64,000 nt of DNA. Origin: a virus (lineage: Duplodnaviria > Caudoviricetes). The translations under genes were made by a program, and so were the position numbers. This document shows, piece after piece, positions 22,678 through 61,061 of the stretch (position 1 is the first letter of the stretch; each line of letters starts with the position of its first letter). Under the pieces are notes generated by a model that saw only the letters and a list, made by a program, of their open reading frames with translations, did not search any database and was not told where the DNA came from. The stretch spans positions 259,679-323,678 of IMG/VR virus record IMGVR_UViG_3300043754_000129, one strand, 5' to 3'.

Positions 22678-23880
22678 TTAACTAGACCAAGAAGTCTCGA
22701 TCTGAGACGGCTCAGCCAGCGTCGTTGTAATCGGGTCGCCCAGTACTTCCATCGTGACGGCTGTCACGGTAATAACCTGCTGCTTGTGCGTGAGCACTTG
22801 ACCGGCAATAGCTCTGGCAGTCGAACCGGTAATGGGTTTGACAATCAGGAACGATTGAATGCCCTTGGTGGTCAGTCCACCCGAGGCGCGAATCATGATC
22901 GAGGTGTTCACCGCGTACGACTGCATCATGGGCTTCGGTTTCAGGATCACCTGTGCGGTCGTTGCGAAGTTCATCATCCCCGTCACGCCACTACCGTTAC
23001 AGAGCACCTGGCCTCGGATCGCCATCGCTTTGGCACTGGGCTTTTGTTGAGTCAGCACCTGACCCTTAATCGCCATGGCCTTTGCGGTCTTGACCCCTGA
23101 GACCATCACCTGACCTGCCACCCCTTGCAGTGTTGCCGAAGGCGGCATGGTCGCCAGTACCTGAGCCTGCACGTTCTGCACTATCAGCTTGCTCGGGACA
23201 GCAACCAACACCTGCCCGCCCGTACCCAGGGAGCTTGCACTGCGATACCCGTTGGATACCAGCACCTGCCCGCCGATCGCCTGTGTCTGGGTGGAAGGCG
23301 GAGACGCTGCCACCACCTGACCCGTCACGGCTTGCACCGTCAGACTCCGTGCTGTCTTCAGAGTCGTGAGGATCTGACCCGTGATAGCACGCGCTACTGC
23401 CGAGCTCTTCTGGGTCGCCACCACTTGACCAGTGACTGCCTGCACAGTGATCTTGGGAGCAGGGGCCGCGATGAGGACCTGGCCACCAATGGCCGAAGAC
23501 TGCGCCGCCGTGAGCGTACTGCCCACAAGCACCTGACCACCAACACCAGCGAGAGAGGACGACGGGATACCACCCGCGAGTGCTTGCGCCTGCACATTCA
23601 CCACCGTGAGCGCTGCCTTCTTCGAGAGCAGTACCTGTCCGCCAATCCCCTTCGCACCCACGGGCTGAGGTGGTAAGCCCACCATCACCTGTGCCTGCAC
23701 GGACTGTGCTTTCAACCCCGGAATAGCGGTTGTCATCACTTGCGCGCGAACCGATTGCGCTTTGAGTCCGGGCAGGGTGCCTACCATTACCTGACCACGC
23801 ACAGCTTGAGCCGTCATCGCGGGTTTGCTACCAACCAACGCTTGCCCGCGTACAGCTTGTACCTGAATGCTCGTAGTCAC
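22678..23880 (-). CDS. Repeat protein with about 22 tandem 17-18-aa beta repeats; putative fibre shaft
   Basis: Recurrent (A/Q)(V/I)xGQV(L/M) unit along the whole length, ending TAVTMEVLGD. Confidence 0.8.
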   Translation of the reverse strand: MTTSIQVQAVRGQALVGSKPAMTAQAVRGQVMVGTLPGLKAQSVRAQVMTTAIPGLKAQSVQAQVMVGLPPQPVGAKGIGGQVLLSKKAALTVVNVQAQALAGGIPSSSLAGVGGQVLVGSTLTAAQSSAIGGQVLIAAPAPKITVQAVTGQVVATQKSSAVARAITGQILTTLKTARSLTVQAVTGQVVAASPPSTQTQAIGGQVLVSNGYRSASSLGTGGQVLVAVPSKLIVQNVQAQVLATMPPSATLQGVAGQVMVSGVKTAKAMAIKGQVLTQQKPSAKAMAIRGQVLCNGSGVTGMMNFATTAQVILKPKPMMQSYAVNTSIMIRASGGLTTKGIQSFLIVKPITGSTARAIAGQVLTHKQQVITVTAVTMEVLGDPITTTLAEPSQIETSWSS

Positions 23881-23891
23881 GGCTAGACTCC

Positions 23892-26213
23892 TTAGGTCGT
23901 CTTAGTGACCGACACTTTCATCGATTGAAGTCCGGCCGCGGTCCACGCAGCACCCGTATTCGGATCAGTCGTCTGAATCAACTGACTGTATCCGGTTTGG
24001 AAACCTGTGCCCGCACCTTGCGAGCCCTGGACACTCTTCGTGCCACTCACCACCCCTACCGCGCCGTTAGCACCCGCGCCCGAGTACTTTGCAAAGTAGC
24101 CTTCCACGATCACAGCCTGCACCCGGTAGTTGGCCGGGATAGTCGGGTTCGTATTGAAGACGTCCGTCTGCCCTTGCGTGGCACTGTAGATCGAGCCTTC
24201 CGAATTGGAAAGCGTGGTGTTCACAATACTTGCATGCGAGCCCGCATTGGACGTCGAGAACTGCGTACTCGAATCGCCATTGAGCGGATCAGGGATGATG
24301 TTAATCGTTCCCTGCTGCCCGTACGCACCTGTCGGGTCGTTCGTCATGTTGGTCGTGTACATATCGTCCACAACCGTGAACTGACCGTTACGCGGCAGGT
24401 TCAGGTAGAGACCCGTGACACCCGTGTCCCCGGAAGGCGCGAGCTGCACTGGACTGCCCCCATTGAGCGGGCCAATGATCGACGTGTCAATCGCCCACTG
24501 CACCGTGAACTGATTGGGCTGCCCCGCCACCGAGGTGAAGATCAGTTCGTAGTAGTGAGTCAGCCCGGAAGCGATCGGCACGTTCTGTGCGCTACCCTGC
24601 GCAGTGGCCGAACCACTCCCTGGTGCCAGGTATGCCGAAACCGGCCGGTAGGTGTTGTTCCCGCTACCTGCCACCGCCCCCGGCATGATGCCTGCCCCCA
24701 CGCTTTGACCAGTGGCGTTGTTCCACGGCACGAAGCTACCGTTGGATTGCGTGCCACCGTAGACACCCAGAAGCGATGCAGTGCCTGCGACCGTTTGCTC
24801 GGTGTAGTCCGGGTAGTACAGTGGCGTCCACGCAATACCGTCAGGTGAGACCGCAAGCACGGCGTTACTCAGACAGCCCGTCAAGACAAAGCGCAGGCCA
24901 TCCCAGAACACCCCGGTGAAGGTGGAACCGCCCGATCCCGACCACAAGAAGCGATCGGACTTCGACCACGTGGCCCCGTCCTTCGAAGTCCACAGACAAC
25001 CGTTACCCGTGAGAGGGTCACTACCAACGGCCACCGCGATGGAGCCATTACAGTCCACCGAAGTCACCACGCCGGCGCCCACATTGAGCGGCTGTGCCCA
25101 CACACCCGTAGTCGGACACTGGATACTGCTCGGCGTGCCCGGATTGGCGATGGTGTAAATGCCGCCGTAACCCACCGAGATCCACACGTTACCACCCGCG
25201 AAGTAGCAGATGTCCAACTGCGTGGCCGGGATCGTCGAGCTATACAGCTGTTGCAACGACGTAATCGGCGTCATCGCCCATTGCGTGGTCTTCGCCTGCT
25301 GGGCATACGGCATCGCCTCACCGGACGTGGGCGAGAAGCCCGTCAAGCAGGCCCAGCCCGACTTGGTGCGACCGATCGAGTACCATTGCCGATTCGACGT
25401 GTTCGTGACGGCCGTCGTGCCCGAGTAGTACGTTGCGCCCCAGACCGTGTAGCCGGAACCCACAGCCGGAACAAAGCCCGGAATCAGCACCCAGCCGTTT
25501 GCATTGGTCGGCGGATAGGCAAAGAACTCATAGCCGCTCGGCGCGCCAGGCAAAGGCGTAATCGCTCCCACGCCGATGTACGAGTTCCAGTTCGTGGTGT
25601 TCAACATGACGGTCCACGACACGCCACCGTTGGTCGAGCCATAGCCCGCCATCACGAACTGACCCGTACCGATACCCGTGTTGTTCTGAAACACCACGAT
25701 GGCAGCATTCGCCCCCGAGCCATACACTGCAATGCTCGAATACGGCGAGATGGCAGCAGGCTGGGCCTGGGTGAGGGTCCAGTTCTGCAAATCGGTGGAA
25801 TGCACCACCACACCCGTCGTGCCGTTCAAGACTGCCACAGCCCAGTAGGTGCCCGCACCATCGTACTGAATCTGGTTACAGTAGTACGGGGCGACTTCCA
25901 ACTGACTCACTTTGTTAAATGTAGCGGCCACGCCCACTGCGAAACCACCGCTTTGCCACGCGGCGTACACACTCTGATTGAGCGCATTCATTCCGAAGTC
26001 AGGCGCGTTCGCCGTTGCCATCGGCAACGCCGCGCTGTTCGAGTACGGACCCTTCAACATCAGGCCCGTGCCAGGAACACCAGTGCGCGACGGAACGCCG
26101 ACTACCGTATTGCCGTTGATGGTGATGGACTGTGACGTCATCCATCCCTTCGCGGCAGTCAGGTCGCTTTGATCGAATGTTGCCTCAAAGCCTTCCGCCA
26201 TCACTAAAGACAT
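23892..26213 (-). CDS. Virion fibre/adhesin paralog 6 (split beta-sandwich with Asp-box propeller insert)
   Basis: AEGFE N-terminus, Asp-boxes (STDLQNW, SKDGATW, SPDGIAW), NLPRNG..VVDD, DPNTGAAWT C-terminus. Confidence 0.8.
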   Translation of the reverse strand: MSLVMAEGFEATFDQSDLTAAKGWMTSQSITINGNTVVGVPSRTGVPGTGLMLKGPYSNSAALPMATANAPDFGMNALNQSVYAAWQSGGFAVGVAATFNKVSQLEVAPYYCNQIQYDGAGTYWAVAVLNGTTGVVVHSTDLQNWTLTQAQPAAISPYSSIAVYGSGANAAIVVFQNNTGIGTGQFVMAGYGSTNGGVSWTVMLNTTNWNSYIGVGAITPLPGAPSGYEFFAYPPTNANGWVLIPGFVPAVGSGYTVWGATYYSGTTAVTNTSNRQWYSIGRTKSGWACLTGFSPTSGEAMPYAQQAKTTQWAMTPITSLQQLYSSTIPATQLDICYFAGGNVWISVGYGGIYTIANPGTPSSIQCPTTGVWAQPLNVGAGVVTSVDCNGSIAVAVGSDPLTGNGCLWTSKDGATWSKSDRFLWSGSGGSTFTGVFWDGLRFVLTGCLSNAVLAVSPDGIAWTPLYYPDYTEQTVAGTASLLGVYGGTQSNGSFVPWNNATGQSVGAGIMPGAVAGSGNNTYRPVSAYLAPGSGSATAQGSAQNVPIASGLTHYYELIFTSVAGQPNQFTVQWAIDTSIIGPLNGGSPVQLAPSGDTGVTGLYLNLPRNGQFTVVDDMYTTNMTNDPTGAYGQQGTINIIPDPLNGDSSTQFSTSNAGSHASIVNTTLSNSEGSIYSATQGQTDVFNTNPTIPANYRVQAVIVEGYFAKYSGAGANGAVGVVSGTKSVQGSQGAGTGFQTGYSQLIQTTDPNTGAAWTAAGLQSMKVSVTKTT

Positions 26214-26222
26214 ACGTACCTC

Positions 26223-28535
26223 TTAGTTGATCTTGTTCGCCACCACATTCAAGGCGTTCAAGCCCGCTGCGGTCCAGGCCGCGCCAGTGTTCGGGTCGAC
26301 CTGCGAGAGCGCAGCCGAGAAGAGTGGCGTCGCACTGTTGGCAGCCACTGTGTTACCCGCGACCACCTGACCGTTGCTGCTCATCTGAATCTGGCAGTTC
26401 GCACCGATCGGACCGTAAGCGGCGAAGAAGCCTTCGACCTGCACGGCATTGATCTTGTAACTTGCCGGCACGGTGTTGCTCGTGCTGTAGGTGTCCTTCA
26501 CCCCCGGCGTGCTGGAGTACACGTAACCCTCGGAGTTCGAGAGCGGCGTATTCACCGTCTTCGCATTGGTGTTGCCATTGATGCTGTTGGTGAGTTGATC
26601 GCTCACGTCGCCCGCAAGAGCCAGCGGCATCACGACTTGGGGGCCCAGTTGACCCACACCGATCGTCCCGGCGAAGTTCGTGAGATAGATGTCGTCGATC
26701 ATCACGAAGTTACCAGTCTGCGGCAAGTTGAACAGCAGGCGCGAAGCACCCGTCGTGTCCGTGGTGGCCGCGAACTGCGCCGTTTGCGTACCCGGCAGGA
26801 CCACGCCGTTGATGGCGTACTGCACCGTGAACTGGTTCGTCGTACCCGGGACCGCGGTTGCGATGATCTCGTAGTAGTTCGTCAGATTACCCGTACACGG
26901 GATGTTCTGCGCAGCATTGGCTACGTTGGTCAGCGTCATGCCGGTCGTGGCGCCCGCGAGCGCAATCCCCTGCACCGTACGCGTGATCACGTTCAGACCT
27001 TGGGTCGCTGCACCCACCGTGAAGCCCAGGCCCGAAGCGAAGCCTGCGGTTGTGGCCGTGCTCCACGGCACGAACGAACCCGCATTCGACGTCGACGAGG
27101 TCGTGTCCAGATACGTACCAGCGGTCAGCGTACCCGAGTAGACGCCCGCCACGTTACCACTGGTCGTGCCGGCGGCTTCCGTGTAGTCCGGGTAGTAGAG
27201 CGCGTTCCACGCAATGCCGTCGGTCGACACCGCGATCACGTTGTTGTTCAAACCACCCGTGAGCACGAAGCGGTGACCGTCCCAGAAGACGTTCGTGAAC
27301 GTGTTGTTCTGCACGGCGCTCGGCTCTTGGAAGAGGAAGCGATCCACCTTCGTCCAACTCGTACCGTTGTTCGTGTAGTAGATGGCCGAGGCATTCGTCA
27401 CGGCATCGTGACCCACAGCAACCGCCACCGTACCTGCCGTATTCACATCGCAGCTGAACACCGCAGCGCTCGCTACCTGCACCACGTTCGACCAAGCGGC
27501 CGTCGGTCCGAGCACGTTACCGACCGTCCCCGATTGCGTGGCGATATAGATACCACCGTAACCCACCGCCACCCAGTAGCCGTTGATGTAGGTCATGTCG
27601 GCAATCTGGAAGCCCGGCAGTGAGCTGCCCGCCGTCCAGTTCGCGGCGGTCGCGATCCCCGAGTTGTTCGCCTGAATCCACGAGAAGTACGTGTTGACGG
27701 CGCCGTTGATGGTGGTCAGGGCCGTACCTGTCGTCCCCCAAGTCATCACGACGCCATTGACGAGCTTCGCAGCACCTGTTGAGTTCGCACCCGTGGCGAC
27801 CAGCTGCGTCGCACTGATGGCCGTGAATGCCAGCGCGCTCGAGAGCAAGCCTACGCCCAGACCCGTGCCGCTCGAATACGGCAGGATGAAGGGTGCAGCA
27901 CTGTTGCCCGTGGCGATCAAGTACTTCGGGTTGGTGATGGCGGCCGAAGTCGTCCACGTCAGACCCATATTGGTCGTGTAGTAGATGGCATTGGCCAAGC
28001 TGTTCATGCTGTTCGACACGATCACCGTCGCGCTCGAACCCGAACCCGAGATCGTGATGGTCGACTGTTGGGCGATGTTGGTGGGCTGCGTCGGGCACTG
28101 AATCCAGTTCTGGAGATCCGACGAATAGCACACCACGTAGGTCGCAGCATTCAGACAGATCGCCCAGTAATACGTGCTGCCATCGTAACGAATCTGCTGC
28201 GGGTTGCTCGGCGCCACTTGCAGCTGAATCGTCTTGTTGAACGTGGCATTGAAGCCGATGGAGAAACCACCCGCTTGCCAGAGCGAATAGATCGACTGGC
28301 CCAGATCCTTCAAACCGAAGTCCGGGTTACCCGAGTTCGGTGCGTAGGTGAGCGAGGCCGTCGTGTACGGACCACGCAGCATCAGCCCGATGGTGTTGGC
28401 CACGCCGTTACGTGCGGGCAGCGGCAGTACGTTCTGACCGCTCAAGCTCGCAGTCTGGTCGAGATCCCAGCCGCGGTAAACCACATCGGTTTCATCCGCG
28501 CACGTCTCGAACCCTTCGAAATACAAAACAGACAT
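26223..28535 (-). CDS. Virion fibre/adhesin paralog 5
   Basis: FEGFE start, SSDLQNW, TNNGTSW, STDGIAW, DPNTGAAWTAAGL. Confidence 0.8.
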   Translation of the reverse strand: MSVLYFEGFETCADETDVVYRGWDLDQTASLSGQNVLPLPARNGVANTIGLMLRGPYTTASLTYAPNSGNPDFGLKDLGQSIYSLWQAGGFSIGFNATFNKTIQLQVAPSNPQQIRYDGSTYYWAICLNAATYVVCYSSDLQNWIQCPTQPTNIAQQSTITISGSGSSATVIVSNSMNSLANAIYYTTNMGLTWTTSAAITNPKYLIATGNSAAPFILPYSSGTGLGVGLLSSALAFTAISATQLVATGANSTGAAKLVNGVVMTWGTTGTALTTINGAVNTYFSWIQANNSGIATAANWTAGSSLPGFQIADMTYINGYWVAVGYGGIYIATQSGTVGNVLGPTAAWSNVVQVASAAVFSCDVNTAGTVAVAVGHDAVTNASAIYYTNNGTSWTKVDRFLFQEPSAVQNNTFTNVFWDGHRFVLTGGLNNNVIAVSTDGIAWNALYYPDYTEAAGTTSGNVAGVYSGTLTAGTYLDTTSSTSNAGSFVPWSTATTAGFASGLGFTVGAATQGLNVITRTVQGIALAGATTGMTLTNVANAAQNIPCTGNLTNYYEIIATAVPGTTNQFTVQYAINGVVLPGTQTAQFAATTDTTGASRLLFNLPQTGNFVMIDDIYLTNFAGTIGVGQLGPQVVMPLALAGDVSDQLTNSINGNTNAKTVNTPLSNSEGYVYSSTPGVKDTYSTSNTVPASYKINAVQVEGFFAAYGPIGANCQIQMSSNGQVVAGNTVAANSATPLFSAALSQVDPNTGAAWTAAGLNALNVVANKIN

Positions 28536-28547
28536 GTTGATCTCACT

Positions 28548-30821: not shown

Positions 30822-30833
30822 GTTGATTCCTCT

Positions 30834-33098: not shown

Positions 33099-33106
33099 AC
33101 TGACCT

Positions 33107-35431: not shown

Positions 35432-35444
35432 CGTGGACCTACCC

Positions 35445-45093: not shown

Positions 45094-45149
45094 AACCGTT
45101 TTCCCTTGTTCTCGGAGAAATTCACATACGATTCGAGCCAAAAATTACC

Positions 45150-47033: not shown

Positions 47034-47042
47034 AGTGCGTCC

Positions 47043-53116: not shown

Positions 53117-53125
53117 AACGAATCC

Positions 53126-53887: not shown

Positions 53888-53894
53888 AGAGACC

Positions 53895-54653
53895 TCACAG
53901 CACAGCAGGAATGAAGAAGCAATCGCAGTACATCGAGAGCGCGTTACTGTTCGAGCCCGTGCTATTCGTGCCCGAGTAGACACAGGTCACCGCGGTGCCC
54001 GCACCCACGTAGATGGAGCCAATGTGGCACTGCGAGAGCAGGGTGTTGTCGCCCGAGACGTTGTTGCCATTGATGCTCAGGTTATACGCAATACCCGCCG
54101 GGTTAGGCGAGGACACGTTCGTGTGTCCCATGGCGACCACCCAACCTGCTACAGGCGCGGTGAAGGACGCCACGCACTGCTGACTGGTCCCAGCGGCGAT
54201 GATCGTACCGTGCAAGGACGAACCAATGGTCGGAGCCACGGCGCCACTGTTCATCGCATTCAATGCAGCCTGTGCACTGGAGGCGGAGGCGGAGGCACTG
54301 GAAGCGGAACTGCTCGCGCTACTCGCGGACGAGGAGGCGGAACTGGCACTGCTTGATGCCGTGGTCGCACTGTTGGCAGCTTGGGTGGCGGAATTCCCCG
54401 CATTAGTGGCGGAGGTGGCGGCGTTGGTCGCACTGGTGGATGCAGCAGACGCGCTGCTACTGGCGTTGGTCGCCGAGGTGGACGCTGAGGAGGCAGAGGC
54501 GGCCGCAGCCGAAGCACTATTGGCTGCCGCAGTTACCTGAGCTGCTGAGCCTTGCTCGTCGGCTTGCACCGCAGCAAAGCCACTCCCCAGACTCTCAATC
54601 TCGGAAGCAAGCGTACCAACGTTCGTGTTGAGTTGTTGTTGGGGAGAGGTCAT
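53895..54653 (-). CDS. Short Ala/Ser-stalk fibre protein with beta-sandwich head
   Basis: PQQQL N-terminus; SASS repeats; FTAPVAGWVVAMG head. Confidence 0.75.
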   Translation of the reverse strand: MTSPQQQLNTNVGTLASEIESLGSGFAAVQADEQGSAAQVTAAANSASAAAASASSASTSATNASSSASAASTSATNAATSATNAGNSATQAANSATTASSSASSASSSASSASSSASSASASASSAQAALNAMNSGAVAPTIGSSLHGTIIAAGTSQQCVASFTAPVAGWVVAMGHTNVSSPNPAGIAYNLSINGNNVSGDNTLLSQCHIGSIYVGAGTAVTCVYSGTNSTGSNSNALSMYCDCFFIPAVL

Positions 54654-54664
54654 GTTTATTCCTG

Positions 54665-55414
54665 TTAGATGCCAGCGACACTGATCGTTCCGGCCTCAGT
54701 GCCGATGTCTTCTGTACCACCTTGGTAGAGCCAAGACAGATTCGCGAACTTGCCTTGCGGACCCAGCTGCGAGTAGATCTGAAAGGTCAGGTTAAAGACG
54801 CCATCAGCCGTACCCGTTTGACCCGTGCCGTTCACGTTGGTCGACTCAGTGCCGCACCAGCGTTCGACGCAGGGCTCTTGACCCTTATAGCCAAAGCAGA
54901 TGTACGCGCCCCGATACGCAATGCTTGCGGTCAGAATCGAATCCACCTGATTGCCGAACATCGTGGCACTCATGACGTTCGTCAGATTCGCCGCACCCAT
55001 TTGCGGTTCGTCGTAGGTGAAGATCAGGTAGAGCTGTCCGTTGTTCAGTCCATTCAGGTAACTGATCATGTTCGCTGTGGCAGAACCCGCCGCAGTCGAG
55101 CCATTGTCACCAAAGACATCGAAGGTTTTCGTGTCGCTGATGTTACCGAAGTTGTCGAAGAGTACGATGTTGTACGAACGAGCGCCTGCAAACACCTGCG
55201 CGCCATCCATCCACAGACCGCGATTGGCAGCGGGGTAGACGATTTGCTGAAGGCCCAGGGAGTAGACCTCGTAAGAGTGGTTCGCGTGGAACTGTTCCCA
55301 CACACCACCCACATTGCGCCAGCCGGCTTTCGTAGGCTTCCAGGTCCCCGCCACATTGGCGTAGACCTTCTTGACTTCATCCCACGTACCGGCTACGTTG
55401 GTGAGTGCTGGCAT
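54665..55414 (-). CDS. ILEI/PANDER (GG)-domain protein, T4 gp35-like fibre component
   Basis: N-terminal NV(A/G)G.W repeats; TKTFDVFGD, MISYLNGL, LIFTYDEP, YRGAYICFGYKG. Confidence 0.65.
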   Translation of the reverse strand: MPALTNVAGTWDEVKKVYANVAGTWKPTKAGWRNVGGVWEQFHANHSYEVYSLGLQQIVYPAANRGLWMDGAQVFAGARSYNIVLFDNFGNISDTKTFDVFGDNGSTAAGSATANMISYLNGLNNGQLYLIFTYDEPQMGAANLTNVMSATMFGNQVDSILTASIAYRGAYICFGYKGQEPCVERWCGTESTNVNGTGQTGTADGVFNLTFQIYSQLGPQGKFANLSWLYQGGTEDIGTEAGTISVAGI

Positions 55415-55416
55415 GA

Positions 55417-55956
55417 TCAGTATTGGAACCAGAGGTCGCCGCTGTTACCACCAGACGGACCAGCCGTCGAGATGGTGATCTTCGGCATGGCAGCCAGGTT
55501 CGACGCAGCGGAAGCAGCCGAGGCAGCGGCAGCTGAAGCCGAACCCGATGCAGCCGTGGCGCTGCTACCTGCATTGGTCGCAGCCGTCTGTGCCGACGTC
55601 GCCGAGGCACCTGCATTCGTAGCGGACGTCGAGGCGTTACCGGCGGAGGTCGAGGCAGCCGAAGCCGAACCACTAGCATTGGTGGCGCTCAGCGAGGCAG
55701 CAGAAGCGGACGTGCTGGCAGCAGTGGCGGAACCCGACGCAGCACTGGCTGACGTTGCAGCGGCACTGGCGCTATTCGCAGCATTCGTGGCACTCGTACC
55801 AGCGGCGGTAGCGGAAGCAGCGGCGTTGGTCGCTTGGACTTTGGCATCTGCGTCATCGGAGGCGATGTTACCCAACCCGGGGGCGAGACCCGTGATGTTT
55901 TCAGCCAAAGAGGCAACTGCATTGGCCAATTGTTGGCCCGGAGTTTGTGCACCCAT
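55417..55956 (-). CDS. Short Ala-stalk fibre protein
   Basis: PGQQL..GLAPGLG N-terminus; ends ITISTAGPSGGNSGDLWFQY, a common fibre motif. Confidence 0.75.
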   Translation of the reverse strand: MGAQTPGQQLANAVASLAENITGLAPGLGNIASDDADAKVQATNAAASATAAGTSATNAANSASAAATSASAASGSATAASTSASAASLSATNASGSASAASTSAGNASTSATNAGASATSAQTAATNAGSSATAASGSASAAAASAASAASNLAAMPKITISTAGPSGGNSGDLWFQY

Positions 55957-55990
55957 TCTTGGTCTCCAGTTAGAGAATCATAGCATTTCG

Positions 55991-56032
55991 CGGCATAAGG
56001 GGCCGGGTTTCCCCGACCCATGGCTTTATGCC
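55991..56032 (-). terminator. Hairpin flanked by GGCATAA and TTATGCC
   Basis: GGCATAAAG...GGGTCGGG-GAAA-CCCGGCCC-CTTATGCCG. Confidence 0.6.
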
Positions 56033-56469
56033 GGCACCATCGAAAGATCCTTGATGAGTGCGTACATCGAGTTCGGATCGAAGCGCCAAGCCGACTCGGT
56101 CAGACCCGCTGCGGTGAGGTCAGCATTGCTGCACCACCACTTGTTGCGCGCCACGTCCTTGATGGGACTGAAGACGAAACCGAGCAGACCGAACCAGTCG
56201 TAACCCTCGCCGTCGTGGGCTTGGAACCATGCCTTAGCTGCATCGAGATCACCGGGACCTTCGAGGATGTCGTACTGATCGGCGGGCAGCTGTTGGTTGT
56301 ACGCGGTGCGCACGCCCGTGCCCGGGACAGCTGACGCGATCGTGTACGTACCGTCTGCATTCTCAGCCAGGATCACTTCCGTATGGAAATACGGACCATG
56401 GCGCCACCAGCAGATGAACTTGTCCTTCAGGTTCGGTGGATTCTTTGCGAAAGCGTATTTCACGGCCAT
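56026..56469 (-). CDS. Permuted papain-like (NlpC/P60, YiiX-like) enzyme
   Basis: His before Cys: YFHTEV...GEGYDWFGLLG...KWWCSN. Confidence 0.75.
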   Translation of the reverse strand: MAVKYAFAKNPPNLKDKFICWWRHGPYFHTEVILAENADGTYTIASAVPGTGVRTAYNQQLPADQYDILEGPGDLDAAKAWFQAHDGEGYDWFGLLGFVFSPIKDVARNKWWCSNADLTAAGLTESAWRFDPNSMYALIKDLSMVPA

Positions 56470-57185
56470 TGGATAGCCTCCACTTGTTGGATTGTCGTTG
56501 CGGCGTACACTTGATAGCCAAGAATCGTGTTCTCAGCCATCTCTTGCAGCACCGCGGTTTTGGCATCCGAACCGACCTGCCAAATCTGACGCAGCGTGTG
56601 GTTACGGAACTCCCAGTCCGGTGGATCTTGCGACATGTCAGCGCACCAGAAGGGTGTCGTCCACATATCCCAAATCACCGAGCCGTCCACCACCGTCGCA
56701 CCGGGCGTACTCGGCCAGTTGGGTGGTTCACTGGAGGTGGTCCCGCCTTGCACCACGATGTACAGCTGCCTGTTCAACCACGTGCACTCACCTTCGACCA
56801 GTTGCGTATTGGGCTTCCAGTCTTCGGAGTTAAAGAGCACGAAGCCCATCGCCGACACAAGCGACGAGAGCATGTTCACCTGGTCAGTCGCCTTCGACGG
56901 ATACAGGTATTCACTACCGAGCGCGTTCGACAGGTAACCCGAATAGATCGCACCCTGACAAGCCTGGCTGATTTTCATGATCTGCGCGGCTTGCGCTAAC
57001 TGCAACGCGGATGCAGCGGCAATCGGTTGGATCGTCGGCGGTTCCGTGCTGCTGTCGATGTAGTACTGCTGCGGGTTCTCGTACTGGGCTTCCGTACAAA
57101 TCACCGCGCCAGCCGGGATCGTTCCATCCGGCGTCATCCCCACTCCACCCGTGGACATGAAGAAGTAGGTTGCTGTTCCCGTCAT
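56460..57185 (-). CDS. Tail fibre assembly-type protein (DUF4376-like) with CBM-like insertion
   Basis: SNALGSEYLYPSKATDQVN, TPFWCAD, HTLRQIWQVGSD, AATTIQQVEAIQW; insert WKPNT...WP...VVDGSVIW. Confidence 0.7.
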   Translation of the reverse strand: MTGTATYFFMSTGGVGMTPDGTIPAGAVICTEAQYENPQQYYIDSSTEPPTIQPIAAASALQLAQAAQIMKISQACQGAIYSGYLSNALGSEYLYPSKATDQVNMLSSLVSAMGFVLFNSEDWKPNTQLVEGECTWLNRQLYIVVQGGTTSSEPPNWPSTPGATVVDGSVIWDMWTTPFWCADMSQDPPDWEFRNHTLRQIWQVGSDAKTAVLQEMAENTILGYQVYAATTIQQVEAIQWP

Positions 57186-57190
57186 TTGTT

Positions 57191-57925
57191 TTAACTCGGC
57201 AGATAGATGAAGAAGGACGAGAGCGAGCTGCTCGTCGTATTGGTCGGTGCGGTCTGCGTCACCGTGATCGTCACCGGCACACCCTTGGTCACCGAGTACT
57301 GCGCGCTCATGATGCCCAAGTTAAAGCTGCCGCTGTTGTTGCTCAGGCTGTTGATGAGCGTACAGCCCACGGCTTGCGAGACCGCAATTTGCGGGCCGAC
57401 CGAGATAGCGTTCGTGCCGCCCGAGCCACCTTGACTCAGGATGGTAAGCAGGCCATTGGCACCTGGCGTGAACGAGAAGGACGTCGAGACCGTTTCGCTA
57501 CTGGACGTATTCGACACCAGGCTCGACTTCACGCTGTTCGCTGCCACCCCGCCCAGATTACTCAGGGCTTCGGCAGGGTTCTGTACGTCTTCCAGATTGT
57601 TGCCCGCTTGCAAGAAGAGAGCTTCGAAGACGGAGAGGATCACGGCGTACGGCACGCTGTAGAGCTTACCGGCACGCACGATCGTTAGGACGTCCGTATC
57701 TTGGAACGCCTTCACAGGAGGCGCATCGCCTGTGATCAATGCCTGGATGCCGGCCGACTGGGCAGCAAAGAGCTGCGCGATGTTGGAGGCAGTGGCTGCT
57801 GCTTGCGAGGCAGTCGCGGCAGAGGTCGAAGCCTGAGTCGCATACTGCTGCGCGTTGTTCATGTAGGTTTGAGCATTACCCGCAGCGAGGTCGGCTGCGC
57901 TCGCGCCATCGGTTCCATCTGACAT
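57191..57925 (-). CDS. Short fibre protein
   Basis: MSDG N-terminus; FLQAGNNLEDVQNPAEALSNLG fibre repeat; beta head. Confidence 0.75.
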   Translation of the reverse strand: MSDGTDGASAADLAAGNAQTYMNNAQQYATQASTSAATASQAAATASNIAQLFAAQSAGIQALITGDAPPVKAFQDTDVLTIVRAGKLYSVPYAVILSVFEALFLQAGNNLEDVQNPAEALSNLGGVAANSVKSSLVSNTSSSETVSTSFSFTPGANGLLTILSQGGSGGTNAISVGPQIAVSQAVGCTLINSLSNNSGSFNLGIMSAQYSVTKGVPVTITVTQTAPTNTTSSSLSSFFIYLPS

Positions 57926-57935
57926 AACTCTTTCC

Positions 57936-58052
57936 TTACTGTTGGCGAGGGCTCAGCAATACCGCGCGCTGGGGTTCCCGTCTTTGGAGTCTCTTGCGAT
58001 AAGAGTCCTGGATGAGTTTCATCAGGCACGCGAAAGACGACATAGAGGGCAT
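57936..58052 (-). CDS. Possible 38-aa small ORF
   Basis: AGGAATCGCC-ATG, MPSMSSFACLMKLIQ...; its stop lies next to the RBS of the following gene; too short for the ORF track. Confidence 0.3.
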   Translation of the reverse strand: MPSMSSFACLMKLIQDSYRKRLQRREPQRAVLLSPRQQ

Positions 58053-58086
58053 GGCGATTCCTAGTTGGGGAAGGACATAAAATGCC

Positions 58087-58125
58087 GGCATAAACGGGAG
58101 GCCGAAGCCTCCCTTGCTTTATGCG
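58087..58125 (-). terminator. Hairpin flanked by GCATAAA and TTTATGCC
   Basis: GGGAGGC-TTCG-GCCTCCC-GTTTATGCC. Confidence 0.7.
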
Positions 58126-59384
58126 TTCGCAATAAGCAGACCGACCAGCAAGATGTTGATCTTCGACACCAGTGCCGCTTGATTGGTTACCTGGATGTAC
58201 AGGTTGCCACTCGTGAGCGGTTGGATGAAGAAGGGCACCACCGTTTGCCAGTTGATCGCGGTGATCACGGGCGACTGGTACAGGATCGTACCCGCAGCGC
58301 CACCATCACGAATGGTGATCTGGTAGTTCTGCGTTTGTGCCGAGTCCACGTTCTGCGCCGTCATCATCAGGCCCAGAATCCCTTGCGACGTGGTGAGGCC
58401 AGAAGCCACCTGTGCGCCAACCGAAATCCCGTTGGTAGCGGTCAGCATCAGGTTCGAGGCGTTGTACTGCTTGGCATTCACGCCACCCTGTGCAATGGCT
58501 GCCGCAGCAGAAGCACTGGCCGCGGAAGCCGCAGCACCCGTAGCGGAGTTCGCTGCACTCGTAGCCGACGTAGCTGCCTGAGCAGCAGAAGCCGATGCCG
58601 CTTGGGCTTGCGTCTGGGCATTGGCTGCTTGCGTGTTCGACTGGGTTGCAGCCGTATTCGCACTGGCCGCACTGTTAGCCGCCGCACTGGCTTGAGCCTG
58701 CGCATCTTGATCCGAGAGCGAGGCACCCTGCGACGCATTGGCAGCAAGTGCTGCGGACTGCGAAGCATTGGTAGCTGCCGTTTGCGCCATCGCTTCTTGG
58801 TTGCTCAGCTGAGACAGAGTTGAAGCAGCTTGAGTGGCAGAAGCAGCGGCATCTGTAGCAGAACCAGCAGCTGCCGTAGCAGAGGCTGCGGCGTTGTCGG
58901 CGTAACCGCTGGCATTGGTAACCTGGACGGCGGCCGAGGTAGCGGACGAGGCGGCATTGGTAGCTGACGCAGCAGCAGCCGTAGCGCTCGCACTTGCGTT
59001 TGTTGCGCTCGTGGCAGCCGCAGTAGCCTTGTTCGATGCGTTAGTACTCGATGCAGCAGCCGCCGTCGCACTGGCGGTAGCGCTCGTAGCAGACGCAGCT
59101 GCTGACGTTTGCGAAGCATTGACTGCTGTCTCTTGAGTCGCAATTTGTGCCTCGACTGCTTGTGCATCCGTCAACGACGTTTGTGCCGCAGCCGCGCTCG
59201 TTTGCGCAGCCGTCGCACTGGTTTGTGCTGCATTGGCCGAGACCACCGCCGCTTCAGCGCTGGCAGTGGCTGATTCAGCATTCGTTTGTGCCCAGTCAGC
59301 ATCGTGAGCCGCAGCTAACAGATCCGCAGCCAGATCCGCGCCGTTGGTTGCGGCAATGCCTGAGGCGAGACCATCAGAAGACAT
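58119..59384 (-). CDS. Ala-stalk fibre protein with beta-rich C-terminal domain
   Basis: MSSDG N-terminus, about 300-aa Ala/Ser/Thr/Gln stalk. Confidence 0.8.
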   Translation of the reverse strand: MSSDGLASGIAATNGADLAADLLAAAHDADWAQTNAESATASAEAAVVSANAAQTSATAAQTSAAAAQTSLTDAQAVEAQIATQETAVNASQTSAAASATSATASATAAAASSTNASNKATAAATSATNASASATAAAASATNAASSATSAAVQVTNASGYADNAAASATAAAGSATDAAASATQAASTLSQLSNQEAMAQTAATNASQSAALAANASQGASLSDQDAQAQASAAANSAASANTAATQSNTQAANAQTQAQAASASAAQAATSATSAANSATGAAASAASASAAAAIAQGGVNAKQYNASNLMLTATNGISVGAQVASGLTTSQGILGLMMTAQNVDSAQTQNYQITIRDGGAAGTILYQSPVITAINWQTVVPFFIQPLTSGNLYIQVTNQAALVSKINILLVGLLIANA

Positions 59385-59400
59385 CTTGATTCCTCACGAA

Positions 59401-59427
59401 ATAAAACGGGAGACCGAAGTCCCCCGT
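59401..59427 (-). terminator. Rho-independent terminator
   Basis: ACGGGGGAC-TTCG-GTCTCCCGT then TTTAT. Confidence 0.75.
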
Positions 59428-59444
59428 CGCGAAAAGAGAGTCGC

Positions 59445-61061
59445 TTAACCCACGCGCCATGCAAAGCCGATCGGGTTGTTGGCCGTGAACGGACCGAGCA
59501 CACCCGAACCACCTGCACCAACACCAGCGGCTTGTTGACCACCGCCTGCGTTGGCCACGAAGTACGCCCACTTCTGGCTCGCCGTACCCGGCAGCACGAA
59601 GGTGTCGTTACCCGTACCTTGCGGAACGAGTGCCACGAACTGACCGAGGCCAGCCGCGTTGGTCGGCACCAGTGCGCTACCCAGTGCACCCGAACCCGCG
59701 ATACCGTTGAAGTTCGCACCGTCCATCTGGAGGATGAGGGTGGTGTCCGAGGGCAGCGTGATCGACGAGACGTTGATACCGAAGGCCGTGTTGAACACAC
59801 CCGCCGACGTATTCAGAGTCAGAGCACCCGACGAGAGGTTCACGAACGCCAAGCACTTCGACGTATCGCCCGCAGCAGGCGCCGGTACGTTGACCGTGTA
59901 GCCACCTGCGTCACCGATTGGCACTTCGTAGATCTTGCCGTAACCCGGGCTCGTGAGGTTGGTGTTGGCCTTGACCTGGATCGTACCCGAGAACATCCCG
60001 AAGGCGTTCAGGTTGGCAGCGGTGGTAGCCGCAGCAGTTGCCGAGTTAGCAGCGTTGGTGGCGCTGGTTGCAGCAGCCGTAGCAGAACCCGAAGCCGCAC
60101 TTGCTTGCGTGCTGGCCGACGTAGCCGACGATGCGGCACCCGTTGCACTCGTTTGAGCCGCGGTTGCGGAATTCGATGCAGCCACAGCCGAGTTGCTGGC
60201 GTTGCCTGCTTGATTGCTTGCGGTCGTCGCCGAGCTAGCGGCTTGCGTCGCGGAGTTCGCCGCTTCCGTGGCAGCCGTGTTGGCGTTACCCGCGCTGGTC
60301 GACGCTGCCGTGCCAGACGCCGCAGCGGCTTGCGCATACTGGAGTGCCGACATGTAGCTCGTACCGTTCACGTTCCCCGAAGTCTGGGCAGCCCAGGCTT
60401 GCGAGAGACCGGCGGAGGTAGCCGCAGCGGATGCCGAAGCACCGGCGGCCGTAGCGGAGGCAGCAGCGGCAGTCGCCGAGGCTTGAGCCGCCGAGAGTTG
60501 TGCCGCGATCGAATAGTCGATGTTGTTCCACTGCGTACCCGAATACACCCGCAGCTTGTTGCTGGTGGTGTTCTCGTACATCGCCCCGGCTTGCACCGGT
60601 TGACCGTTGCCATCCACCGTCGGATCATTGGCACCGGCACCCAGGAAGTAGGTGTTGTAGGTGTGCATGAACGCGGTGAGCGACGTAGCGGTCTGAGCGA
60701 AAGCCGCGAGTGCATCTTGCGTGGACGTGAAGGCTTGAGCAGCGCTGGCTTGCGATGCTTGCGCTTGAGCAGCCGAAGCTGCGGCAGCGGTAGCCGATTG
60801 ACTGGCCCACGTGGCGCTTTGGCCCGAGGAACCGGAATTGGTCGAAGACGTCGTGGCGGCTTGCGAGGCAGTCGCGGCCGAAGCCGCAGCAGCTGTCGCC
60901 GATTGAGCCGCAGCAGCAGCTGATGCATTCGCACTGGCGATCGTGTCCGAGTTCACACTCGCGATCACGCTGTCAATGAAGTTCTCGAGAGCCGTATTGA
61001 CGGCACTCGCCAGTGCGGTGGATGCGCTGCTTACGCCGTCCGAGTTGGTACCGTCCGACAT
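59445..61061 (-). CDS. Ala-stalk fibre protein sharing modules with the 2028-aa fibre
   Basis: Start MSDGTN at 61061; FLGAGANDPTVDGNG module and AWAAQ..V.G..YMSA knuckle. Confidence 0.8.
   Translation of the reverse strand: MSDGTNSDGVSSASTALASAVNTALENFIDSVIASVNSDTIASANASAAAAAQSATAAAASAATASQAATTSSTNSGSSGQSATWASQSATAAAASAAQAQASQASAAQAFTSTQDALAAFAQTATSLTAFMHTYNTYFLGAGANDPTVDGNGQPVQAGAMYENTTSNKLRVYSGTQWNNIDYSIAAQLSAAQASATAAAASATAAGASASAAATSAGLSQAWAAQTSGNVNGTSYMSALQYAQAAAASGTAASTSAGNANTAATEAANSATQAASSATTASNQAGNASNSAVAASNSATAAQTSATGAASSATSASTQASAASGSATAAATSATNAANSATAAATTAANLNAFGMFSGTIQVKANTNLTSPGYGKIYEVPIGDAGGYTVNVPAPAAGDTSKCLAFVNLSSGALTLNTSAGVFNTAFGINVSSITLPSDTTLILQMDGANFNGIAGSGALGSALVPTNAAGLGQFVALVPQGTGNDTFVLPGTASQKWAYFVANAGGGQQAAGVGAGGSGVLGPFTANNPIGFAWRVG

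What the first reader, a model, noticed from the sequence alone, without database searches (positions are those of the whole stretch)
22678..61061. A 38-kb block of about 25 fibre/adhesin genes: candidate modular hairy-virion system
Seen in sequence: one uninterrupted minus-strand block consists almost entirely of fibre-type proteins, with Ala/Ser/Thr stalks, fibre repeats and small beta heads. Only one S74-type fibre and one assembly-type protein are present. No sheath, tube, baseplate or capsid gene was recognised here. Established: typical tailed phages carry only a few fibre genes, while some jumbo phages show hair-like fibres on the head and tail. Inference: this block encodes a multi-component set of surface fibres with many different heads, which could be the undescribed system in this window.
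Basis: partly seen in the sequence, partly recalled or inferred. Interest (0 to 1): 0.7.

Follow-up and report, generated by a model that had tools for sequence, protein, structure and literature searches.

The report
Accessory tail-fibre arsenal of jumbo phage
A giant soil phage of the phiKZ type devotes 38 kb, about 12% of its genome, to 24 genes for fibres and sugar-binding-type proteins on top of its normal tail fibres; this is most likely a multi-receptor host-recognition kit, a large new variant of something already known in other giant phages.

Summary
The block is real: 24 minus-strand genes at 22678-61061, 97.8% coding, no core tail or capsid gene recognised among them. It is not uniformly "fibre with Ala/Ser/Thr stalk". 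Eight genes have Ala-heptad coiled-coil stalks, and these are the only such genes in the 324-kb genome. Two have C1q heads and one has an S74 chaperone. 14 kb is six globular 754-790-aa paralogues (jelly-roll scaffold with an inserted seven-bladed Asp-box propeller).

The genome is a phiKZ-like jumbo phage, collinear with Burkholderia phage FLC9 over the core. It has its own gp131-type baseplate-fibre genes about 125 kb upstream of the block in the record, so this block is extra.

The cassette [quoted passage not shown] recurs with 1-6 copies in related metagenomic phages, in a phage co-assembled with Caballeronia arationis, and in unrelated jumbo phages (phiRSL1, RsoM2USA, BcepSaruman). The two Ralstonia phages share copies at 72-79% identity, the exchange pattern expected of receptor-binding modules.

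Best reading: virion-attached accessory receptor-binding fibres. "Hairy virion" is neither supported nor excluded. It is a new variant of a known kind (compare phiKp24, RaK2, CBB).

The parts
39007..45093 (-). Long fibre, 2028 aa (ATG at 45093; an upstream TTG at 45141 would give 2044 aa). Ala/Ser/Thr heptad coiled-coil segments are interrupted by repeated small beta 'knob' modules and YSAxYYA motifs. It ends in a roughly 130-aa beta head.
   Evidence: 60% A+S+T with Ala periodicity 3.5. The DNA repeats are spaced in multiples of 21 nt. phrog_38058 'tail fiber' matches five stretches, E 4e-58. Motifs counted. The 2028-aa gene call is the same in a near-identical strain.
37827..38990 (-). 387-aa protein. 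The N-terminal half is a concanavalin-A-like lectin jelly roll; the C-terminal half is unresolved. It always lies between the long fibre gene and the 770-aa genes.
   Evidence: AF2 pLDDT is only 52, with residues about 50-225 at 60-85. VIA Z 12-13 to sialidase lectin domains, BoNT Hc-N and peanut lectin over residues 7-245. Homologues occur in BcepSaruman (gp279), BCSR5 and Motura, and in every related cassette.
23892..37817 (-). Six tandem paralogues of 773, 770, 757, 754, 774 and 790 aa (23892-26213, 26223-28535, 28548-30821, 30834-33098, 33107-35431, 35445-37817). Each is a beta-sandwich scaffold with an inserted seven-bladed Asp-box propeller (residues about 103-448) and a C-terminal beta-sandwich.
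   Evidence: Pairwise identity 35-53%; most variable at residues about 195-363. AF2 pLDDT 86.6, pTM 0.87. Propeller Z about 21. The best Foldseek matches are propeller-plus-sandwich glycosidases, sialidases and Vps10. phrog_30887, E 9e-52. At least three, mostly four, shared Asp-box-like motif positions per copy. Synonymous changes greatly exceed non-synonymous ones against a 94%-identical strain.
22678..23880 (-). Last gene of the cassette. A protein of 400 aa (or about 370-380 aa from a later start) made of 17-18-aa GQV repeats. Function unknown: a shaft or an assembly factor.
   Evidence: Repeat spacing of 17-19 residues. 40% identical homologue at the same position in the 320-kb ENA contig, weaker ones in L033 and L034. 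A 14-bp-stem terminator-like hairpin lies downstream at 22551-22520.
45259..46475 (-). Two short proteins with C1q heads (207 and 201 aa; 45259-45882 and 45870-46475). They share N-terminal family C.
   Evidence: Pfam C1q 41.5 and 53.1 bits against a cut-off of 23.7. 48% identical to each other. N-terminal z = 23. Three further genes with this N-terminus occur in L034.
46476..48197 (-). Two proteins (185 and 384 aa) that share a 17-residue N-terminus (family D) but have different bodies. The larger one matches a tail-fibre PHROG.
   Evidence: 15 of the first 17 residues identical (88%), z = 13. phrog_4492 'tail fiber', E 5e-12. Weak match to BcepSaruman gp272, annotated 'tail fiber protein'.
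48449..52444 (-). 1331-aa fibre: N-terminal 'MSSDG' motif, a short A/S/T coiled coil, a long beta-rich shaft and a C-terminal S74 intramolecular chaperone.
   Evidence: Pfam Peptidase_S74 35.9 bits against a cut-off of 22, at residues 1204-1257. SDYRLKEN motif at residue 1204. 15 PHROG families hit, 12 of them named tail fibre. Terminator-like hairpin at 48438-48413.
52445..55956 (-). Four short fibres with N-terminal family A and Ala-heptad stalks (52445-53116, 53126-53887, 53895-54653, 55417-55956). An ILEI/PANDER-domain protein (54665-55414) lies among them.
   Evidence: Stalk periodicity 3.5. PHROG tail-fibre hits. N-terminal z = 5.6-9.6 for three of them; 53126-53887 is assigned to family A by eye only. 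Homotrimer prediction for 53895-54653: ipSAE 0.59 against 0.00 for the best control. ILEI Pfam 34.4 bits against a cut-off of 27, with homologues in FLC9, RSL2, RSF1, FLC6, FLC8 and SURPRISE13.
56026..57185 (-). Conserved pair: a 147-aa non-fibre protein (phrog_1128) and a 241-aa protein (phrog_1348 'tail fiber'). They may be assembly or accessory factors.
   Evidence: PHROG hits E 2e-20 and 9e-20. Both are 54% identical, and adjacent, in the Caballeronia-associated phage contig. No Pfam or NCBIfam hit.
57191..61061 (-). Three fibres with an 'MSDG/MSSDG' N-terminus (weak family B): 244, 421 and 538 aa. Two have long heptad stalks and each has a different beta head. The 538-aa protein also carries one 'knob' module like those of the long fibre.
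   Evidence: 41% identity over 53 aa to the long fibre's knob; z = 4.1 only. Terminator-like hairpin at 59428-59405.
61285..62658 (-). Flanking gene, not a fibre: a BCS1-like AAA+ ATPase, homologue of phiKZ gp286.
   Evidence: Pfam BCS1_N plus AAA. phrog_7485, E 6e-120. 35-39% identity to phiKZ-like phages.

Best explanation
The block is the accessory host-recognition module of an uncultivated soil jumbo phage of about 324 kb, of the phiKZ/chimallivirus type. The host is probably a member of the Burkholderiaceae. The block has two parts.

(A) 22.7-45.1 kb is a long-tail-fibre cassette. It holds a 2028-aa fibre with heptad coiled-coil stalks and beta knobs, a 387-aa lectin-fold protein, six diverged proteins of about 770 aa (lectin-like scaffold, seven-bladed Asp-box propeller, C-terminal sandwich), and a repeat protein. 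I read the propeller proteins as alternative or co-assembled glycan-binding (possibly glycan-cleaving) tips, whose variable propeller blades 3-5 set specificity.

(B) 45.2-61.1 kb holds about 15 genes, mostly shorter trimeric fibres. Three clear N-terminal segment families (plus one weak one) are joined to heptad stalks of different lengths and to different small beta heads (two C1q, one S74-chaperoned, several unassigned).

Inferred mechanism: the shared N-terminal segments dock different fibres onto a few common attachment sites on the virion, most likely the large peripheral baseplate, as in relatives. The stalks give reach and the heads bind different surface glycans. The particle can then adsorb to several receptor types or hosts, in addition to using its gp131-type baseplate fibres.

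Shown: gene content, folds, paralogy, conservation, purifying selection, horizontal exchange of the cassette, and model support for one trimer. Inferred: incorporation into the virion, the attachment site, glycan binding, and the role in host range.
For: Phage identity and 'extra' status. The genome has split RNAP beta subunits, a terminase and a DNA polymerase. Its terminase is closest to FLC9, then RP12 and RP31. It is collinear with FLC9 over G000 1-205 kb, and the block lies in the non-conserved arm. G000 has its own gp131/133/134/135-like genes at 170-176 kb. phiKZ fibres are built from those paralogues (PMC13250141).

Fibre nature. There are many PHROG tail-fibre hits, S74 and C1q Pfam hits and Ala periodicity of 3.5. 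All eight A/S/T-stalk ORFs of the genome lie in the block, and FLC9 has none. The homotrimer test for 53895-54653 gave a score of 0.59 against 0.00 for the best of 3 controls. That mark was reached by 20 of 30 proteins solved as pairs of one chain and by 1 of 23 solved as single chains. The runs agree in at least 85% of contacts and partner pLDDT is at least 68. The job used my own 3-row alignment and three copies, unlike the calibration. Contacts are spaced i+3/i+4 along residues 8-135 and continue in the head.

Propeller paralogues. Confident AF2 model, seven-bladed propeller, architecture like sialidase, GH74, GH43 and Vps10, Asp-box motifs, and variability concentrated in blades 3-5.

Conserved cassette with variable copy number. 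6 copies here and in a 94%-identical strain, 5 in a 320-kb contig, 3, 2 and 2 in IMG/VR contigs, 1 in the Caballeronia-associated phage, 2 in phiRSL1 and in RsoM2USA, 1 in BcepSaruman. In phiRSL1 and BcepSaruman it lies beside genes annotated as tail-fibre and baseplate genes.

Exchange. phiRSL1 ORF183 and ORF184 are 78.6% and 72.3% identical to RsoM2USA gp419 and gp421. These phages show no dot-plot similarity (PMC8504454) but share a host genus.

Real genes. Synonymous changes greatly exceed non-synonymous ones between strains. Scaffold-like viral proteins of about 350 aa include one annotated as a virion structural protein.
Against: There is no virion proteomics, micrograph or expression data for this phage or for any homologue that I could read. 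The phiRSL1 proteome paper is not held, and the RsoM2USA gel bands listed do not include gp418-421 (PMC8504454). No docking domain of a known kind (T4 gp10-like, or the gp131 N-terminal segment) was detected, so the attachment site is a guess. The glycan-binding or enzymatic role of the propeller proteins rests on fold resemblance alone. No Pfam or PDB sequence match was found. The block lies far from the tail genes I could place in the core, in a genome arm that is otherwise full of small early or accessory genes. The closest cultured relative, FLC9, does well without most of it.
Confidence: 0.55

Rival explanations
1. Hairy virion: most of the short fibres decorate the capsid and/or the tail sheath as hair-like appendages, as in CBB, 121Q, Atu_ph07, Y3 or PTm1, rather than the baseplate. 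They would increase the capture radius in soil.
For: There are many short fibres of different lengths with a few shared N-terminal families, which would suit many equivalent sites on a lattice. The block is encoded apart from the gp131-type fibre genes and the other core tail genes I could place. Hairy jumbo phages exist (PMC7824862, PMC13282480, PMC6102473). Chimalliviruses can carry very abundant extra filaments (Goslar DUF7941 cloud and collar filaments, bioRxiv 10.64898/2026.04.21.720040).
Against: Nothing in the sequences points to capsid or sheath binding. I detected no homology to known head-fibre, decoration or whisker proteins. The only 'head decoration' PHROG hit is marginal (phrog_20658, E 2e-4, on 56460-57185). 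The genes of hairy phages' hairs are mostly unidentified, so no comparison is possible. For RsoM2USA, which carries cassette A, only ordinary tail fibres are described (PMC8504454).
Confidence: 0.2
2. The six propeller paralogues do not act as alternatives. Together with the 387-aa protein they form one hetero-oligomeric distal complex on the long fibre, analogous to the hetero-hexameric gp131/133/134/135 fibres of phiKZ.
For: The phiKZ precedent of paralogous proteins co-assembling in one fibre (PMC13250141). The order of orthologues is largely kept between this phage and the 320-kb relative, and the copies are old (35-53% identity), as expected for fixed subunits. The genes are separated by only 8-13 nt, which suggests co-expression.
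Against: Copy number ranges from 1 to 6 among relatives with the same flanking genes, which is hard to square with a fixed stoichiometric complex. Between near-identical strains individual copies diverge in patches (86.5-99.4% identity), as for independently evolving specificity determinants.
Confidence: 0.1
3. Part of the block, especially the propeller/lectin proteins, is not in the virion. These would be soluble glycan-degrading or glycan-binding proteins made late and released at lysis (free depolymerase-like factors), or proteins acting on the infected cell's envelope.
For: The fold architecture resembles secreted glycosidases (GH43, GH74, sialidases). The proteins are globular and lack a recognisable fibre or anchor segment. 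Free depolymerase forms are known for other phages (my own knowledge, not checked here).
Against: The genes are always embedded between a long fibre gene and its downstream partner, within one tightly packed unit. No signal peptide or catalytic motif was identified; I ran no dedicated test. Related scaffold proteins are annotated as virion structural in at least one phage (annotation only).
Confidence: 0.1

Closest known systems
phiRSL1 ORF182-184, RsoM2USA gp418-421 and BcepSaruman gp278-281 cassette (PHROG 30887 family; all annotated hypothetical or 'tail fiber')
   Same: Homologous. There is a full-length HMM match at 27-30% identity. The gene order is the same: a long A/S/T fibre gene, then (in BcepSaruman) a homologue of the 387-aa protein, then the genes of about 750 aa.
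   Different: Those phages have one or two copies; this one has six. They belong to other jumbo-phage lineages (no phiKZ-type RNAP or nucleus). None of their products has a described function. The copies from this phage's clade form a separate branch of the tree.
phiKZ tail fibres gp131-gp135 (PMC13250141)
   Same: Paralogous virion proteins (gp131 is about 770 aa, gp133-135 about 460 aa) that include a seven-bladed propeller proposed to bind the host. Several paralogues are encoded in tandem.
   Different: No sequence similarity. In gp131 the propeller is C-terminal, behind a helical N-terminal docking segment; here it is inserted into a beta-sandwich scaffold and there is no such N-terminal segment. 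This phage has separate true gp131-like genes in its core tail module.
Hyperbranched multi-fibre systems of jumbo myophages phiKp24, RaK2 and phiK64-1, and of CBA120 and G7C (PMC9700779)
   Same: A jumbo phage devotes a gene cluster to a dozen or more receptor-binding proteins. Groups of shared N-terminal structural modules carry different C-terminal specificity domains, and the arrangement is linked to broad receptor range.
   Different: Those are beta-helix depolymerase tailspikes docked through T4 gp10-like domains, in T4-related Klebsiella and Escherichia phages. Here there are coiled-coil fibres with small C1q-like or other beta heads, plus propeller proteins, in a chimallivirus. No gp10-like domain was detected.
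Chimallivirus DUF7941 'fibre cloud' and collar filaments (Goslar; bioRxiv 10.64898/2026.04.21.720040)
   Same: Chimalliviruses can carry host-recognition filaments beyond the canonical tail fibres, some with carbohydrate-binding or hydrolase domains.
   Different: A different protein family and a different assembly principle (head-to-tail globular protomers). No similarity of the block's proteins to phiKZ gp126 or gp127 was found, and no such Pfam hit.
'Hairy' jumbo phages CBB, 121Q, Atu_ph07, Y3 and PTm1 (PMC7824862, PMC6102473, PMC13282480)
   Same: Accessory fibres beyond the tail fibres on very large virions; proposed to help attachment.
   Different: Their hairs are known from micrographs, and the genes are mostly unassigned. 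Here there are genes without micrographs, and the lineage is different.

Membership tests
PHROG 30887 / phiRSL1 ORF183-184 family | Full-length profile match | tested here: met
   E 9.3e-52 (residues 1-772 on profile positions 18-770 of 771) and E 1.2e-40 for the two paralogues tested. tblastn covers 100% of the query in phiRSL1 and RsoM2USA.
PHROG 30887 / phiRSL1 ORF183-184 family | Position directly downstream of a long fibre gene | tested here: met
   The same order is found in phiRSL1, RsoM2USA and BcepSaruman, in four metagenomic phage contigs and in the Caballeronia contig.
Tail fibres or spikes with an intramolecular chaperone (Peptidase_S74) | C-terminal S74 domain above Pfam's cut-off | tested here: met
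   48449-52444: 35.9 bits against a cut-off of 22, residues 1204-1257. No other gene in the block has this domain.
Tail fibres or spikes with an intramolecular chaperone (Peptidase_S74) | Ser/Lys autoproteolysis motif, and actual cleavage | tested here: inconclusive
   The motif SDYRLKEN is present at residue 1204. Cleavage itself cannot be tested with these tools.
C1q/TNF-like trimeric head | Pfam C1q above the cut-off | tested here: met
   45259-45882 scores 41.5 bits and 45870-46475 scores 53.1 bits, against a cut-off of 23.7. The other heads gave no Pfam hit, and a language-model lead stayed below 0.9.
Trimeric alpha-helical coiled-coil fibre | Heptad periodicity and trimer formation | tested here: met
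   Ala periodicity of 3.5 in eight proteins. Homotrimer model for one of them: 0.59 against a best control of 0.00, with heptad-spaced contacts. This is model support, not proof.
phiKZ gp131-135 baseplate fibre family | gp131-like N-terminal docking segment or sequence similarity | tested here: not met
   No protein of the block hits phiKZ 110-195 kb at E below 1e-3, whereas G000 170496-171992 and 173426-175912 do. The family profile has no match among PDB sequences.
phiKZ gp131-135 baseplate fibre family | C-terminal seven-bladed propeller | tested here: not met
   A seven-bladed propeller is present, but it is internal (residues about 103-448) and is followed by about 300 residues of beta-sandwich.
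Sialidase / GH74 / GH43-type propeller glycosidases | Beta-propeller with Asp-boxes plus an accessory beta-sandwich | tested here: met
   Foldseek E 1e-8 to 1e-10 to GH43, GH74, trypanosomal sialidases and Vps10, with low TM-scores of 0.2-0.3. Three to six Asp-box-like motifs per copy, at four shared positions.
Sialidase / GH74 / GH43-type propeller glycosidases | Family-specific catalytic residues or a family HMM match | tested here: inconclusive
   No Pfam, NCBIfam or PDB sequence match. Catalytic residues were not mapped. The hits in the 1.84-billion-protein library outside the family match only the Asp-box blades.
Chimallivirus DUF7941 fibre-cloud proteins | DUF7941 module | tested here: inconclusive
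   No Pfam hit in the 24 block proteins and the flanking ATPase, and no BLAST similarity to phiKZ gp126 or gp127. I could not confirm that the Pfam copy used holds this model.
Branched receptor-binding complexes (CBA120, G7C, phiKp24 type) | T4 gp10-like docking domains and beta-helix depolymerase bodies | tested here: inconclusive
   No such family was hit. The one family modelled is propeller plus sandwich, not beta-helix. The short fibres were not modelled individually, apart from one trimer.

The most novel reading that the evidence does not exclude
The block is a plug-in fibre system not yet described for nucleus-forming (phiKZ-like) phages. In this reading, three or four classes of short N-terminal adaptor segments mount more than a dozen different trimeric fibres on the virion at once, possibly at sites beyond the baseplate. 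A long fibre also carries an expandable array (one to six copies) of lectin-scaffold/propeller proteins. These would form a new, horizontally mobile family of receptor-binding or glycan-cleaving tips shared by unrelated jumbo phages of the Burkholderiaceae.
Probability: 0.25. Interest if true: 0.7.

Novelty: new variant of a known kind. Interest (0 to 1): 0.45.

Why it matters
Jumbo phages of Burkholderia and Ralstonia are being developed for crop protection, and their broad host range is unexplained. This block nominates concrete candidates. The first is a family of about 55 full-length cluster representatives in 1.84 billion proteins with a confident, unusual architecture: a propeller inserted into a lectin-like scaffold. 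Its copy number is expandable, and it is exchanged between unrelated phages that share a host genus. The second is a set of modular coiled-coil fibres. If these products are on the virion, chimalliviruses would have a third kind of host-recognition apparatus besides the gp131-type fibres and the DUF7941 filaments. A related phage co-assembled with a culturable strain, Caballeronia arationis LMG 29324, may make this testable.

Tried and rejected
- Megablast of 14 kb of the block against 50,697 phage records found no match.
- The family profile matched nothing among PDB sequences.
- hhalign of the 770-aa family against the 387-aa protein was not significant: single sequence, probability 0.1%; profile against profile, probability 2.6%, E 0.018, over the C-terminal roughly 90 residues. 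The idea that the 387-aa protein is an insert-less relative therefore stays open. Both have lectin-like sandwiches by fold.
- The AF2 model of the 387-aa protein has low confidence (pLDDT 52). I used only its N-terminal half.
- NCBIfam hit nothing in ten block proteins. Pfam hit nothing in most of the short fibres.
- Language-model neighbours of one head and of the repeat protein scored below 0.9, so they are leads only.
- The head of 53895-54653 has only two homologues in 5.8 billion proteins.
- Sequencing runs: three soil metagenome holders and no RNA holder listed. I laid no reads.
- The phiRSL1 proteome paper (PubMed 20034649) is not held. The RsoM2USA and SURPRISE13 papers say nothing on the homologues.
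- Total counts of terminator-like and promoter-like sites are not above the shuffled expectation. I cite only the long-stem hairpins that fall in the intergenic gaps.
- I considered that the block is host DNA at the edge of a 'provirus' call, and rejected it. It is flanked by phage genes on both sides, and related phage contigs carry it.
- I did not search specifically for inversion or diversity-generating systems near the block. None of the family scans hit a recombinase or a reverse transcriptase.

Full report
**What the window is.** The window is the last 64 kb of a 323,678-bp IMG/VR virus record. The genome encodes split multisubunit RNA-polymerase beta subunits, a large terminase and a DNA polymerase of the phiKZ-like kind. 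Its terminase is closest to Burkholderia phage FLC9 (59.5% identity), then to Ralstonia phages RP31, FLC1-1B and RP12. tblastn of all ORFs against the full FLC9 genome shows collinearity over G000 1-205 kb. The remaining arm, which includes the window, shares few genes with FLC9.

**Checking the observation.** Between 22678 and 61061 there are 24 minus-strand genes. They cover 97.8% of the stretch, have high GC3 in the called frames, and are separated mostly by 0-16 nt. The long plus-strand ORFs inside are antisense artefacts: the minus-strand genes they overlap have strong family hits. Four larger gaps carry long-stem terminator-like hairpins on the minus strand (22551-22520, 45181-45163, 48438-48413, 59428-59405). 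The block is therefore probably four or five transcription units. One Peptidase_S74 fibre is present. No sheath, tube, baseplate or capsid family was hit in the window ORFs I scanned.

**Composition is more varied than described.**
- Eight proteins have long Ala/Ser/Thr stalks with an Ala periodicity of 3.5 residues, i.e. heptad coiled coils. In the 2028-aa gene this shows at DNA level as repeats spaced in multiples of 21 nt.
- A six-frame scan shows that these eight are the only such ORFs in the whole 324-kb genome. FLC9 has none.
- Two proteins have C1q heads above Pfam's cut-off.
- One protein has an ILEI/PANDER-type domain.
- About 14 kb of the block is not fibrous at all. It is six tandem paralogues of 754-790 aa.

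**The six paralogues.**
- They are 35-53% identical to each other. At DNA level they are only 60-80% alike, so the duplications are old.
- With a 32-sequence alignment, AlphaFold2 gives a confident model (pLDDT 86.6, pTM 0.87).
- Residues about 103-448 form a seven-bladed beta-propeller (Z about 21 to many propellers).
- The whole chain resembles propeller-plus-sandwich enzymes and receptors: GH43, GH74, trypanosomal sialidases and Vps10. Foldseek E-values are 1e-8 to 1e-10 with low TM-scores, as expected for a multidomain query.
- The copies share Asp-box-like motifs at four positions, and each copy has at least three of them. The least conserved part is residues about 195-363, roughly blades 3-5.
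- In the viral structure library, many phage proteins of 320-370 aa match the non-propeller part (target TM 0.5-0.6). One of them is annotated as a virion structural protein. The propeller therefore looks like an insertion into a pre-existing phage beta-sandwich scaffold.
- The family is PHROG 30887, function unknown. It has no match among PDB sequences, in Pfam or in NCBIfam.
- A profile search of 1.84 billion representatives finds about 55 full-length members. The thousands of other hits match only the Asp-box blades of unrelated large proteins.

**The conserved cassette.** The same order recurs in many places: long A/S/T fibre gene, a gene of about 380 aa, N copies of the gene of about 770 aa, and in this clade a repeat-protein gene.
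- Six copies in a 94%-identical strain.
- Five copies in a 320-kb ENA contig.
- Three, two and two copies in IMG/VR contigs of 285, 279 and 218 kb.
- One copy on a contig of the Caballeronia arationis LMG 29324 assembly. That assembly also holds a jumbo-phage terminase 63% identical to this phage's.
- Outside this lineage: phiRSL1 ORF182-184, RsoM2USA gp418-421 and BcepSaruman gp278-281. In phiRSL1 and BcepSaruman the neighbouring genes are annotated as tail-fibre and baseplate genes.

A quick maximum-likelihood tree pairs most window copies with orthologues in the 320-kb contig, so the array predates their split.

Between the two near-identical strains the copies are 86.5-99.4% identical. Differences fall in patches, and synonymous changes far outnumber non-synonymous ones. 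These are functional genes with locally fast evolution.

phiRSL1 ORF183 and ORF184 are 78.6% and 72.3% identical to RsoM2USA gp419 and gp421. The two phages show no dot-plot similarity and sit in different clades (PMC8504454), but they infect the same genus. That exchange pattern is what one expects of receptor-binding modules.

**The other cassette members.** The N-terminal half of the 387-aa protein is a concanavalin-A-like lectin jelly roll (Z 12-13 to sialidase lectin domains, BoNT Hc-N and peanut lectin). The model is poor overall (pLDDT 52). Its kinship to the 770-aa scaffold is not shown by profile comparison. The last gene encodes 17-18-residue GQV repeats, and its role is open.

**The short fibres (45.2-61.1 kb).** The N-terminal 35 residues fall into families:
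- C: two C1q proteins, z = 23.
- D: two proteins sharing 15 of their first 17 residues, z = 13.
- A: three to five short fibres and perhaps the long fibre, z = 5.6-9.6 for the core three.
- B: a weak 'MSDG' group, z = 4.

An earlier first-reader note suggested such families, and I tested the idea here. Further genes with the family-C N-terminus, and homologues of several other block genes, lie next to the cassette in related contigs.

For 53895-54653 the homotrimer prediction scored 0.59 against 0.00 for the best of three controls. That mark was reached by 20 of 30 proteins solved as pairs of one chain and by 1 of 23 solved as single chains. The runs agree in at least 85% of contacts, and partner pLDDT is at least 68. 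The job used my own alignment and three copies, unlike the calibration. Stalk contacts recur every 3-4 residues, and the heads also touch. The model supports trimerisation but does not show it.

**Relation to the phage's canonical fibres.** phiKZ carries twelve peripheral fibres built from the paralogues gp131, gp133, gp134 and gp135, and gp131 ends in a seven-bladed propeller (PMC13250141). G000 has its own homologues at 170496-171992 and 173426-175912. Homologues of other phiKZ and FLC9 core virion and tail proteins (gp129, the gp181-like tail lysin) lie in the same collinear core. I did not identify the sheath, tube or major capsid genes. No protein of the window's block resembles gp131-135 in sequence. 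The block therefore comes in addition to the canonical fibres. FLC9 lacks the 770-aa family and has only a few small homologues of block B.

**Interpretation.** The best-supported reading is an accessory, modular receptor-binding arsenal attached to the virion, most likely at the baseplate periphery. The long-fibre cassette would supply up to six glycan-recognising tips. The short fibres would supply further specificities through a few shared docking segments.

Virion incorporation, attachment site and ligand are all inferred. The 'hairy virion' version (head or sheath decoration) cannot be excluded, but nothing specific speaks for it. Other rivals are a single hetero-oligomeric tip complex, which variable copy number argues against, and soluble non-virion glycan-active proteins, which the tight embedding among fibre genes argues against.

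**Novelty.** Multi-fibre gene clusters and hair-like appendages are established for jumbo phages (PMC9700779, PMC7824862, PMC13282480, PMC6102473). Chimalliviruses were recently proposed to carry a different extra filament system, DUF7941 (bioRxiv 10.64898/2026.04.21.720040). Three things are new here. The first is the scale (38 kb, about 12% of the genome) in a phiKZ-like phage. The second is the sixfold expansion of an uncharacterised scaffold-plus-propeller family. The third is that this cassette is shared and exchanged among unrelated jumbo phages of the Burkholderiaceae. I rate it a new variant of a known kind, of moderate interest.

Noticed in passing
L038/L040 (Caballeronia arationis LMG 29324 contig FCOG02000034, 1-14786) and L041 (G001:C275:93957-99890): The genome assembly of a cultured Caballeronia arationis strain contains contigs of a related jumbo phage. 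Its terminase is 63% identical to this phage's, closer than FLC9's. It carries a single-copy version of the fibre cassette, followed by a 116-aa N-terminal fragment of a second copy. This may be a culturable host-phage pair or a carrier state.
   Followed up: partly
L001 19950-24455 (phiRSL1) against L008 20001-24664 (RsoM2USA): Two Ralstonia jumbo phages of unrelated lineages share the two propeller-protein genes at 78.6% and 72.3% amino-acid identity (about 65-67% DNA identity). The adjacent long fibre genes are about 51% identical in part. This looks like horizontal exchange of a host-recognition module.
   Followed up: partly
window 61285-62658 (-): A BCS1-like AAA+ ATPase (BCS1_N plus AAA domains) lies directly upstream of the block. 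Its homologues (35-39% identity) include phiKZ gp286 and genes in many phiKZ-like and other large phages, but tblastn does not find it in FLC9. Its role is unknown. Some records annotate it as 'chaperone'.
   Followed up: partly
window 56026-57185 (-): A gene pair, 147 aa (phrog_1128, annotated enoyl-CoA hydratase-like, which seems unlikely here) and 241 aa (phrog_1348 'tail fiber'), is conserved and adjacent at 54% identity in the Caballeronia-associated phage. It may be a fibre assembly or modification pair. No Pfam or NCBIfam hit.
   Followed up: partly
window 54665-55414 (-): A 249-aa protein with N-terminal 'GxWK' repeats and an ILEI/PANDER-type domain (Pfam PF15711, 34.4 bits). Its homologues are confined largely to the phiKZ-like Burkholderia and Ralstonia jumbo phages (FLC9, RSL2, RSF1, FLC6, FLC8, SURPRISE13, RsoM3USA).
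   Followed up: partly
window 30834-33098 and 33107-35431 (-) against L042: Between two strains that are 94% identical in DNA, two of the six paralogues are much more diverged (86.5% and 92.8% protein identity) than the others (96.7-99.4%). The differences cluster in patches (residues about 350-550 and 500-600), which suggests local recombination or diversifying change.
   Followed up: partly
window 7980-10773 (-): Adjacent NAMPT-like and ribose-phosphate pyrophosphokinase-like genes (phrog_448 and phrog_619), as in other jumbo phages. Another first-reader note reads them as an NAD-reconstitution pair.
   Followed up: no
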